Positions 3,090-37,140 of a stretch of DNA of 64,000 nucleotides are shown one piece after another. Under the pieces are notes generated by a model, which worked only from the letters and a program-made list of their open reading frames with translations, was not told the origin of the DNA and ran no database searches. Position numbers and translations under genes: made by a program. Origin of the DNA: Octopus vulgaris (taxonomy: Eukaryota); contig OX597820.1 of assembly GCA_951406725.2 (NCBI GenBank), positions 76,260,001-76,324,000 on the forward strand. The letters are read 5' to 3'. Position 1 is the stretch's first letter; every line of letters starts with the position of its first letter.

Positions 3090-3275
3090 ATGACAGCCCT
3101 GGTTTAGGACGAATATTGCTGTAATTTTGCCCCAGGAGACATCGTCTCCAGCTGGCTATACGACATGATCTGTATCCTTATATTTTTGAACAAGGGAATC
3201 TAGCACCCCAACTCAGCTCAAAACAATATCTGTGTATCGCGATTTCCGGGTTATTTCCCTTCATCAGCACAGAAT
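3090..3275 (-). mobile_element. HHR-associated short repeat family H (Penelope pLTR/retrozyme-like)
   Basis: Shares CCCCAGGAG...GCTGGCTAT.CGA...ATAT.TTG.A.CA.GG(G)A with 7605-7790 and 63315-63525. Confidence 0.55.
3229..3273 (-). ncRNA. Minimal type I hammerhead ribozyme, intact core
   Basis: Minus strand: TCTGTG-CTGATGA-a-GGG-aaataa-CCC-g-GAAA-TCGCGA-TA-CACAGA; 6-bp stem I, 3-bp stem II, palindromic stem III ATCGCGAT, AUA cleavage triplet. Confidence 0.8.
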
Positions 3276-3407
3276 AATTGTTTTGTGCAGATGAATTTTT
3301 ACTCCAAAGTACTGTTGCTGAATATCCCTCGTTGTCAGATTTAAAAATAGTAATTTTCAACGAGATATATAAGCCTAGCTTCTTACTGTAATACATATAA
3401 GAAAAAC

Positions 3408-33014: not shown

Positions 33015-33182
33015 TATATGTGTGTGACGGGCTTCTTTCAGTTTCCGTCTACCAAATTCATTCACAAGGCTTTTGTCAGCCCGAATCTATAGTAGAAGTC
33101 ACTTGCCCAAGATGCCACGCAGTGGGACAGAACCCGGAAGCAAGTGCTTGGGAAGCAAGCTTCTTACCACACAGCCACGCCT
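32770..33182 (-). mobile_element. SINE family A
   Basis: Both modules plus internal (TA)n. Confidence 0.88.
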
Positions 33183-33612
33183 AGATATTGGGCATCTCGG
33201 CAAAAATAGAATGATAACCTAAGTACCAGATTTAAAAGCAAGAAATATGATTCCTGGAGGTCATGAGTTCGACTAACTGCTTCGAGTTTGTGTTACAACA
33301 TGGCCGCAATCCAATGACTGAAAAGTGTAGTAGATAAAATGAATAAATAAAACAGAAACGAAATCGCCATTTCAAGACCGACCGTAGAATCTCATTTCAA
33401 ATGTCAACAATTAATCTTTCATGTCTGCAGTTCATAGAGAAAACGGTATTCTCTAATCAACACTTACACGCATGCGCAAATGTAAGCACTCGCGCGCGCA
33501 TGTGTATAGATTTGTATATAGTCATAAATTTGCTGGTGTGAATCTGTGTGCTTTTTCATGTGAAACTATACGCATAGGTTTGTATGTTCAAACATGTATG
33601 AATTTATATGCC

Positions 33613-35245: not shown

Positions 35246-35415
35246 CATACATGTATGTACAGCCTTCTTTCAGTTTCTATCTACCAAATCAACTCACAAG
35301 GCTTTAATCGGCCCGAGGCTATAGTAGAAAACACTCTCCCAAGGTTCGACGCAGTGGGATTGAACCCAGAACTATGTCATTGGGAAGCAAGCTTCTTACC
35401 ACGCAGCCACTTCTG
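35030..35415 (-). mobile_element. SINE family A with deletion
   Basis: Homologous head and tail. Confidence 0.8.
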
Positions 35416-35938
35416 CATACATATATACAGTGACCCGCAAAAGTTTGCAATACAATTTACTCAATTGATTAATTTTACAGATATTTTGAATAAAAATGAT
35501 TTTTCAAAGATTCGTTTTGCAAGATTCCTGATTTGTAATCGTGTGTTGAAACAGATATTGCAGAATGTGGAGGCTCGATTAATAGCATAGAGGTTAAAGT
35601 ACTACCGACACCTAGAACTGACACGACACTTAGACAAATCACAGAGGCTACACACTCAGTAGAAAACACGAACGGAACAGTAACACCGGTTACCACATCG
35701 CATGACTAATTTCAAAAGGGATGAGAAGGGAGAGGGGGGAAATCGTAAATAATGCACTGAAATATACAGGGTAATACATACACAATAAGCATATATGCTC
35801 TTACCTGTAATACTTAGGAGAAATATAGATATATAAAAAAATAATATATATATATATATTATACTAGTAAGTGCTAGGAGGGATATTTTTCATATTGGGG
35901 CAGTAGTTGTATGAAGCCTTCACTGAAAGTTCACACAA

Positions 35939-36011
<73 letters not shown>

Positions 36012-36274
36012 CATACACACACGCATATAATGACGAAGGCAGCTATATGCAATATGAAATCAAAATGGAAAACTGAGTTACTAACTGTGACTGTGGTTTC
36101 CGGGTAACACCTATATTCCAAGAAATAGTAGTTAAAAAGAATTAGAGCCTCAAGAAAGCAGTTTTTCACATACTGACAGGGGACATAACCGCCCCACAAT
36201 GAAACTAAGTCAATATAGTAGGCTAGTTTTGCCTTAAAATTACATGTTCATCAATAGTGACAAATTTATCACTG

Positions 36275-36850
36275 GATGACCATTTTACTGAACCGCCCAT
36301 AAATTCATACGGTAAATACAATATCAGACAGTAGGTATTCAACCAAACCATTCAACAATGAAGTAGTCACTACTGAAGATCTTCTAATTTTCAAGTGAAT
36401 CTTGTCAAGTACAGTGATCTAGCTTCGCTGTGGGTCGGTTATCTCCCTTGTCAGTTTATGAAAATCTGCTTTCTTGCAGCTCTAAGATTTTTTAAAGTCT
36501 TATTTCTAGCAACATACATGCTACCTGGAACTTTCATTCACAATTAGTAACTATATTTTTTTTTCTTTTCGGTTTTATATTGTATATAGCTGCCTACGTG
36601 ATTTTTTAAATTTCACATTAGCATTTTGCCGAATCAGCCACAAGTTCATATGGCAAATATATATTATACACCGGCAATCAGGATTTCGCCAAACCATCCA
36701 GCGAGGAAGTAGTCACGAATGATGAGCTTGTAAAATTTATGCGAAACTAGACCAGTATAGTGATCTATCTTCCCCATAGGGAGGTTATCTCCCTTGTCAG
36801 CGAATGAAAATATGTTTTCTTACGGCACTAAGGGTTTCTAGCTCTTATAG
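36275..36850 (+). mobile_element. Diverged tandem dimer (period 346 bp) with an HHR motif in each unit; retrozyme-like
   Basis: AAGTAGTCAC at 36361 and 36707; HHR-like motifs at 36367-36417 and 36713-36763; shared GGTTATCTCCCTTGTCAG. Confidence 0.7.
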
Positions 36851-37140
36851 GTAGTCCCTGGTCCCTCAGCCACAGTTAGAGATAAATGTGTGCATGGATA
36901 AATGTGATACTGAATATTCGGTTTAGCTATTCACATCAGATTATTTCATGCAGCGTTGGCTAAAATATATAGATATAATCTGAGGTTCAGTACAGAATTG
37001 AAACAAGACTCGATTATCTTGCCTCATACACTTACACACAGCAGGCACATACACACGCACACACACACACACAACCAAACACGAACACTACAAAAACACA
37101 AATACACAAACATACACATCTATTTGTCTATACATACATA

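What the first reader, a model, noticed from the sequence alone, without database searches (positions are those of the whole stretch)
36275..36850. Fossil retrozyme-like dimer: two hammerheads 346 nt apart
Unit 1 reads TCACTA-CTGAAGA-tcttc..caagt-GAAT-cttgtcaa-GTA-cAGTGA and unit 2 TCACGA-ATGATGA-gcttg..tatgc-GAAAC-tagacca-GTA-TAGTGA. Their defects are complementary, and the merged sequence gives a full HHR (6-bp stem I TCACTA/TAGTGA, stem II GCTTG/CAAGC). Double cleavage would release a monomer of about 346 nt, within the size range of animal non-LTR retrozymes that form circular RNAs.
Basis: partly seen in the sequence, partly recalled or inferred. Interest (0 to 1): 0.75.

Follow-up and report, generated by a model that had tools for sequence, protein, structure and literature searches.

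The report
Fossil retrozyme inserted by Penelope machinery
This is an old, decayed copy of a small protein-less jumping element that carries a self-cutting RNA motif; the shape of its insertions suggests that a Penelope-type retrotransposon enzyme pasted it, and it is an ordinary fossil of a known kind.

Summary
Real, but ordinary. Both hammerhead remnants are present as described, 346 nt apart. It belongs to a dispersed non-coding family (357 and 1006 first-look candidates). Two sister subfamilies keep the fold through compensatory changes. Insertions bear the Penelope footprint: 26 of 45 end within one 14-nt window, 31 of 45 abut microsatellites, 8 of 45 have 5' inversions. The family looks extinct: copies lie about 12% from the majority, arms of one insertion are as unlike as unrelated copies, and no young array was found. 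All three motifs here have lost core bases and stem II. The 'complementary defects' are expected from independent decay (58% of damaged pairs). No autonomous partner with a homologous terminal repeat was found, and circles are untested. The scan reported younger hammerhead repeats with the same footprint elsewhere in this genome.

The parts
36025..36888 (.). Whole composite insertion: inverted arm joined back-to-back to a partial tandem arm
36025..36278 (-). Inverted 5'-truncated arm, unit positions 278 to 195 (counted from the cleavage site); ends at the family's main 3' end, with the ~50-nt tail; 81% to the family majority
36210..36260 (-).
36276..36888 (+). Tandem arm of 1.8 units (unit 205-340, 1-340, 1-144); ends at the second preferred 3' end, without the tail; 83-84% to the majority
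36367..36417 (+). Hammerhead remnant 1 (A15.1>U, G10.1>U, stem II 3 of 5 pairs); cleavage site after 36411
36412..36757 (+). One full unit from site to site, 346 nt, non-coding; circular fold z -1.6 against -5.3 for the family majority
36477..36592 (+). Branched stem-loop domain predicted alike in subfamilies A and B; both preferred 3' ends fall in U-rich single strands in or just after it; candidate RT recognition region (inferred)
36713..36763 (+). Hammerhead remnant 2 (C3>A, stem I and stem II damaged); cleavage site after 36757
35939..36024 (.). (ATCT)n/(CA)n microsatellite abutting the end of the inverted arm; likely target site

Best explanation
This is a decayed insertion of a non-coding 340-nt hammerhead-bearing retroelement (a non-LTR retrozyme), likely copied into the genome by the reverse transcriptase and GIY-YIG endonuclease of a Penelope-like element, and its three ribozyme motifs are predicted to be dead. 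Shown: a dispersed family with a tandem unit; an intact type I hammerhead in the family majority; compensatory changes between three subfamilies; fixed 3' ends, scattered 5' ends, 5' inversions and microsatellite flanks; decay of all copies; Penelope-type RT/GIY-YIG ORFs in the same genome. Inferred: while active, tandem transcripts self-cleaved (possibly as double hammerheads, since stem III is palindromic) to 340-nt monomers that may have been circularised. A Penelope enzyme cut an AT/CA microsatellite on both strands and began cDNA inside the RNA at two preferred points, about 143 and 195 nt after the cleavage site. It then ran through the uncut or re-joined ribozyme junction for one to two turns. 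Extension from both cut strands gave the back-to-back arms seen here, one with the tail and one without. After insertion the arms mutated independently.
For: Family: 357 and 1006 first-look candidates, 40 scored each, on many contigs. Majority unit 340 nt, 37% GC, no long ORF, full hammerhead core and stems, circular fold z -5.3. Subfamilies B (342 nt) and C change stem II, distal stem I and the cleavage triplet but keep pairing; 7 of 13 pairs change on both sides in 13 hand-picked natural copies, 83% of cells paired against 27-42% when slid. A C copy passes Rfam Hammerhead_1 at 45.5 bits. Footprint in 45 subfamily-A loci: 26 ends at unit 186-199 (binomial p 1e-24), 7 more at 128-155, at most 6 starts in any 14-nt bin, 31 with a microsatellite within 30 nt (background 13%), 8 with an adjacent 5' inversion. 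Subfamily B: 21 of 30 ends at 187-204, 7 of 30 inverted. 0 of 45 start or end at the cleavage site, 27 of 45 exceed one unit. These features are those described for PLE insertions (PMC8557442) and for internal RT starts with both strands extended (PMC11167929). A PLE insertion in this genome shows the same asymmetry, tail on the inverted arm only (L091). PLE ORFs of 781 aa with RT and GIY-YIG exist. Decay: median 12% from the majority; identity within a locus 78.8%, between loci 78.6%; G12 changed in 21 of 57; 10 of 52 motifs keep all 12 core bases, none keeps all pairs too.
Against: No autonomous PLE with a homologous terminal repeat was found: 0 of 30 GIY-YIG loci (30 of 150 listed, of 6136 candidates) and 0 of 5 extended loci; the one match, beside L082, is a separate subfamily-B insertion. 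So the partner is inferred from the footprint alone. The hammerhead core is slightly better kept than matched non-core sites (67 of 593 changed against 85.6 expected, p 0.02), so decay is not proven fully neutral, although choosing best BLAST hits and subfamily variation could give this. Loci were the top hits of queries centred on the ribozyme, which favours long, junction-spanning copies. One of two PLE insertions checked (L095) has no tail asymmetry. The covariation count uses related sequences, and the B rows are out of register in stem II. Nothing here separates a circular from an uncut multimeric template. No cleavage was measured.
Confidence: 0.85

Rival explanations
1. The unit is only the pseudo-LTR of an extinct autonomous Penelope-like element; the copies are 5'-truncated ends of that element and the 340-nt unit never moved on its own.
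For: PLE pLTRs carry type I hammerheads (PMC4209133) and vertebrate retrozymes are homologous to pLTRs (10.64898/2026.07.22.740005). The insertion footprint is that of PLEs. Subfamily B has the extra base before stem II typical of PLE hammerheads.
Against: In the family loci mapped, sequence upstream of the hammerhead is the unit itself, read round again, or unrelated flank. PLE protein remnants lie near 3 of 96 locus records tested by tblastn (L035, L046, L108; two on the opposite strand; none directly upstream), leaving out L096, which was found through a PLE. 27 of 45 copies exceed one unit. Three subfamilies each keep a closed 340-350 nt unit.
Confidence: 0.07
2. The locus is still functional: the tandem is transcribed and releases a 346-nt RNA or circle, perhaps by the two motifs complementing each other.
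For: Each plus-strand motif misses only one core base, and four of six stem I pairs still form with probability of 0.96 or more. The family core is slightly over-conserved.
Against: The lost bases are C3 and A15.1, both essential (established hammerhead chemistry, recalled). Stem II probability is <=0.01 in all three motifs against 0.6-1.0 in near-intact copies. The arms are 71-74% identical, no closer than unrelated copies. A swap at stem II between the units would pair only 2 of 5 bases (sequence).
Confidence: 0.03
3. The family was mobilised by a LINE (SINE-like, with twin priming) or spread as a DNA-level repeat, not by Penelope enzymes.
For: LINE-type RT ORFs lie in nearby loci. LINE insertions can also show 5' truncation and inversion (recalled).
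Against: No poly(A) tail or unique 3' end; two internal 3' ends about 50 nt apart; the inverted arm repeats the same 3' region instead of continuing the 5' part; copies are permuted 1.x-mers. No terminal inverted repeats shared across copies.
Confidence: 0.05

Closest known systems
Metazoan non-LTR retrozymes (Cervera and de la Pena 2020, PMC7229834; mussel 350-390 bp, axolotl, coral)
   Same: Non-coding unit of 340 nt, GC 37%, one canonical type I hammerhead per unit, tandem copies, highly paired predicted circle, co-existence with PLEs.
   Different: Only 1.0-1.8 units per arm, no long arrays found; all copies decayed; expression and circles not shown; inverted arms (the word 'inverted' has 0 hits in that paper's main text).
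EN+ Penelope-like element insertions, non-autonomous derivatives (Craig et al. 2021, PMC8557442; Frangieh et al. 2024, PMC11167929; Li et al. 2026, 10.64898/2026.07.22.740005)
   Same: Partial tandem plus adjacent inverted 5'-truncated copy, tail at one end only, two internal 3' ends downstream of the hammerhead, microsatellite or AT-rich targets.
   Different: No ORF; tail about 50 nt rather than 30-40; no homology found to a pLTR of an autonomous element here; the hammerhead is canonical with a 3-4 bp stem III, not the minimal PLE type.
Younger hammerhead repeats of 360, 485 and 490 nt noted by this scan in the same genome (e1-8662707, e1-8663039, e1-8666193, e1-8672319)
   Same: By their notes: hammerhead unit, Penelope footprint, back-to-back arrays starting at two fixed points.
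   Different: This family is old and decayed; the look-up by sequence found no look-alike note; their sequences were not compared here.

Membership tests
Non-LTR retrozyme | Type I hammerhead in each repeat unit | tested here: met
   Intact in the family majority and decayed in each window unit; covariation across subfamilies
Non-LTR retrozyme | Short non-coding unit (150-450 bp), GC below 50% | tested here: met
   340 nt, 37% GC, stops in all six frames
Non-LTR retrozyme | Head-to-tail tandem organisation, dimers or more | tested here: met
   4 of 45 loci hold two sites in one arm, a fifth is split by a mariner; 27 of 45 exceed one unit. No arm with three sites was found.
Non-LTR retrozyme | No LTR, PBS or PPT | tested here: inconclusive
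   No LTR-body-LTR layout in any mapped locus; PBS and PPT were not searched for
Non-LTR retrozyme | Self-cleavage of the RNA | not testable with these tools
   Predicted lost at this locus; needs an in vitro assay
Non-LTR retrozyme | Accumulation as linear and circular monomer RNA | tested here: inconclusive
   Only assembled contigs of runs guessed to be RNA were available; they cannot show ends or circles
'Active' retrozyme as defined by Li et al. 2026 | Two consecutive units with complete hammerheads | tested here: not met
   Both plus-strand motifs lack a core base; none of the 4 two-site loci has two intact motifs
PLE-mobilised non-autonomous element | 5' truncation with fixed 3' end(s) and optional tail | tested here: met
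   26 of 45 ends at unit 186-199, 7 at 128-155, starts scattered
PLE-mobilised non-autonomous element | Adjacent inverted 5'-truncated copy | tested here: met
   Window itself; 8 of 45 A loci, 7 of 30 B loci
PLE-mobilised non-autonomous element | Microsatellite or AT-rich target bias | tested here: met
   31 of 45 against 13% background
PLE-mobilised non-autonomous element | Homology to the pLTR of an autonomous partner | tested here: inconclusive
   0 of 30 GIY-YIG loci, a sample dominated by one young family out of 6136 candidates
Autonomous Penelope-like element | RT plus GIY-YIG ORF between the repeats | tested here: not met
   No ORF in the unit; tblastn of the 781-aa PLE protein finds nothing in the window

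The most novel reading that the evidence does not exclude
The genome preserves a fossil series of one free-standing circular ribozyme RNA lineage (subfamilies C, B, A) that parasitised Penelope enzymes without being a piece of any Penelope element. It re-wired its hammerhead stems by compensatory change while keeping a branched RNA domain that sets two RT start points, so this domain would be a transferable recognition signal for Penelope RT, and each inverted-plus-tandem insertion would record the enzyme running round one circle from both cut strands.
Probability: 0.25. Interest if true: 0.55.

Novelty: new member of a known kind. Interest (0 to 1): 0.3.

Why it matters
As a single locus it matters little: it is a dead transposon copy. 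As a family it adds invertebrate evidence to a proposal made in print, that animal retrozymes are moved by Penelope-like enzymes; the 2026 preprint argues this from co-occurrence and pLTR homology in vertebrates, whereas here the evidence is the insertion footprint. The three subfamilies give natural compensatory variants of one hammerhead and point to a conserved domain next to the two inferred RT start sites, which could be tested in the existing in vitro PLE assay. Younger families in the same genome, noted by the scan, are better material for testing circles and mechanism.

Tried and rejected
Rfam scans of the window region found no hammerhead; one search was swamped by microsatellite matches to miRNA models. 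Tandem Repeats Finder did not report the 346-nt repeat. Pairs of copies 2-6 kb apart were checked as possible pLTR-ORF-pLTR elements: C11 is a dimer split by a mariner, C6 a 2.35-kb segmental duplication, C10 two copies in opposite orientation with no ORF of 120 aa between them. The match beside the PLE at L082 looked like the partner's pLTR but lies outside that PLE's own inverted repeat; it led to subfamily B. 25 of 49 Rfam Hammerhead_1 loci were examined: 1 (L126) has a hammerhead in a related unit, none has a PLE ORF within 1.5 kb. Search for young copies: best hits 73-87%, exact-core patterns gave 1, 3 and 10 matches in 2.8 Gb, controls 0. Expression: no RNA holder listed. Contigs of 6 runs guessed to be RNA held only short pieces under 95% alike, often inside longer unrelated sequence; one contig repeats the unit, which genomic 1.x-mers also explain. 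None of this is evidence for or against expression. Run X1 holds the locus at 99-100% and may be the same source, so it does not date the insertion. A test for variants shared by the arms of one insertion gave 2.6 per 100 nt within loci against 1.4 between, but only 0.9-2.0 in the window, so a common template for this locus is not shown. The A/C figure for the hammerhead is an artefact of a deleted reference copy and was not used. No structure or complex prediction was run, as there is no protein.

Full report
1. Observation. The two strings are in the window as quoted. Motif 1 spans 36367-36417 and motif 2 spans 36713-36763; the cleavage sites follow 36411 and 36757, 346 nt apart. They sit in a direct repeat of 152 nt at 76% (E 2e-26). 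The same self-comparison shows that 36030-36603 is a decayed palindrome (69%, E 8e-57). Mapped on the family unit, the locus has two arms: an inverted arm 36025-36278 (unit positions 278 to 195, counted from the cleavage site) and a plus arm 36276-36888 (unit 205-340, 1-340, 1-144). The inverted arm holds a third hammerhead remnant, 36210-36260 on the minus strand. Rfam does not recognise the window's motifs.

2. The family. The window is G000:C7:76260001-76324000 in a 2.8-Gb microsatellite-rich genome. Two DNA searches gave 357 and 1006 first-look candidates; only 40 were scored each, so these are not copy numbers. I analysed 45 distinct loci, after dropping 8 repeated fetches and merging the two halves of one split locus. 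The majority unit is 340 nt, 37% GC, with stops in all frames. It holds a complete type I hammerhead: stem I TCACTA/TAGTGA extended past an internal loop, stem II GCTTG/CAAGC, a near-palindromic stem III and a GUA triplet. As a circle it folds with z -5.3 against 60 shuffles; the window's own unit gives -1.6.

3. Sister subfamilies. A diverged copy beside a Penelope ORF led to subfamily B (568 candidates, 342-nt unit, 82% to A). The best Rfam Hammerhead_1 hit in the genome (45.5 bits, cut-off 34) led to subfamily C (45 candidates). Stem II reads GCTTG/CAAGC in A, GCCTA/TAGGC after an extra U in B, and GTCC/GGAC in C; the triplet is GUA in A and GUC in B and C; distal stem I changes on both sides. 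On 13 hand-picked natural copies, 7 of 13 pairs change on both sides and 83% of cells pair, against 27-42% when slid. The sequences are related and B is out of register in stem II, so this supports the fold but is not a probability. Inference: the ribozyme was under selection while the lineage was moving.

4. Insertion footprint. Among 45 A loci, 26 end at unit 186-199 (p 1e-24) and 7 at 128-155; the window's plus arm ends at 144, though the automatic count lists it at 91 because of a 12-nt deletion. No 14-nt bin holds more than 6 starts. 31 ends have a microsatellite within 30 nt (background 13%). 8 have an adjacent 5' inversion. In B, 21 of 30 end at 187-204 and 7 of 30 are inverted. None of 45 starts or ends at the cleavage site, 27 exceed one unit and 4 hold two sites. 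The loci are top hits of ribozyme-centred queries, which favours junction-spanning copies but does not fix where they stop. Craig et al. (PMC8557442, passages) list for PLE insertions: partial tandems, an adjacent inverted 5'-truncated copy, a 30-40 bp tail at one end, and microsatellite bias. Frangieh et al. (PMC11167929, parts 1-2 of 4) show that a PLE protein cuts and extends both strands of AT-rich DNA and starts cDNA at two internal RNA sites that define the tail, with uncut RNA the main template in vitro. The window fits: the inverted arm ends at 195 against a microsatellite, the plus arm at 144. A PLE insertion here shows the same asymmetry (L091); a second (L095) does not. The genome holds 6136 GIY-YIG candidates, with open 781-aa RT plus GIY-YIG ORFs; their CX4CX2C linker fits the Neptune/Nematis motif described.

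5. Partner not found. None of 30 GIY-YIG loci, nor 5 extended ones, has a terminal repeat homologous to the unit. The sample is small and dominated by one young family, so an old partner may be missed. PLE remnants lie near 3 of 96 family locus records, none directly upstream of the hammerhead.

6. Age and state. Copies are a median 12% from the majority (range 8-21%, 55 segments). Arms of one insertion are 78.8% identical, copies at different loci 78.6%, so nearly all divergence arose after insertion and arrays were not homogenised. The window's arms are 71-74% identical, or 0.16-0.18 substitutions per site per arm, which under recalled animal neutral rates means tens of millions of years. 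CpG positions changed in 34% of cases, other C and G in 16-17%; G12, which lies in a CpG, changed in 21 of 57. The core as a whole changed in 67 of 593 cases against 85.6 expected (p 0.02), a small excess of conservation that I cannot fully explain. 10 of 52 motifs keep all 12 core bases. Exact-core patterns find 1, 3 and 10 places in the genome. At this locus motif 1 has A15.1>U and G10.1>U, motif 2 has C3>A, and the inverted one has C3>U and G12>A; stem II probability is <=0.01 in all three. Non-overlapping core defects occur in 58% of 780 pairs of damaged copies, so complementarity is the default.

7. Mechanism. Most likely (0.85): a retrozyme RNA, cut to unit length by its hammerhead and perhaps circularised, was bound by a Penelope RT/endonuclease, which cut a microsatellite and primed cDNA from both strands at two internal points, running through the junction for one to two turns. 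The footprint is shown; the enzyme, the cleavage and the circle are inferred. Both 3' ends fall in U-rich single strands in or just after a branched domain predicted alike in A and B, a candidate recognition signal. A circle and an uncut multimer fit the data equally well.

8. Known or new. It works like, and meets the sequence criteria of, a non-LTR retrozyme (PMC7229834, passages); it fails the 'active' criterion of Li et al. 2026 (10.64898/2026.07.22.740005, parts 1-3 of 5 with all results and discussion), who already propose PLE origin and mobilisation. PLE hammerheads and dimeric cleavage: PMC4209133, passages. Two searches (listings only, apart from PMC8557442) showed no paper describing this family, but Repbase, Dfam, the supplements of PMC8557442 and those of the preprint were not seen, so it may be catalogued. 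The scan's notes, read after my reading was recorded, report younger hammerhead repeats with the same footprint in this genome; they are unchecked and are not counted as support.

9. Verdict. Observation confirmed, interpretation partly supported. A new, extinct member of a known kind; interest 0.3.

Noticed in passing
window 3195-3293, minus strand: A second, unrelated type I hammerhead-like motif: perfect 6-bp stem I, short stem II, palindromic loop 3; 21.9 bits, E 0.002 with model R1. Probably another repeat family.
   Followed up: partly
L094:2664-5006 and many loci: A young Penelope-like family with open 781-aa RT plus GIY-YIG ORFs at many places, preceded in L094 by an overlapping 333-aa ORF with no Pfam match.
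   Followed up: partly
family A alignment: CpG positions decay about twice as fast as other C and G (34% against 16-17%), which suggests germline methylation of these copies.
   Followed up: no
L127-L150: At least two further hammerhead families unrelated to this unit, one with a 60-nt insertion in stem II; several show 5' inversions and end at (TA)n.
   Followed up: no
L178:1257-1857: A copy with a stem II between subfamilies A and B (no extra U, B-like pairs); 78% to B, 71% to A; possibly a fourth subfamily.
   Followed up: partly
L056:3354-5175: A mariner transposase remnant splits an inverted-plus-dimer insertion of family A, so that mariner is younger than the retrozyme burst.
   Followed up: partly
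L055:2617-7297: A 2.35-kb tandem duplication at 98.7% identity, holding a LINE 3' fragment and one family copy; recent duplication or assembly artefact.
   Followed up: no
window 33027-33187 and 35259-35419: Two copies, 80% alike, of another dispersed repeat (D18); not studied.
   Followed up: no
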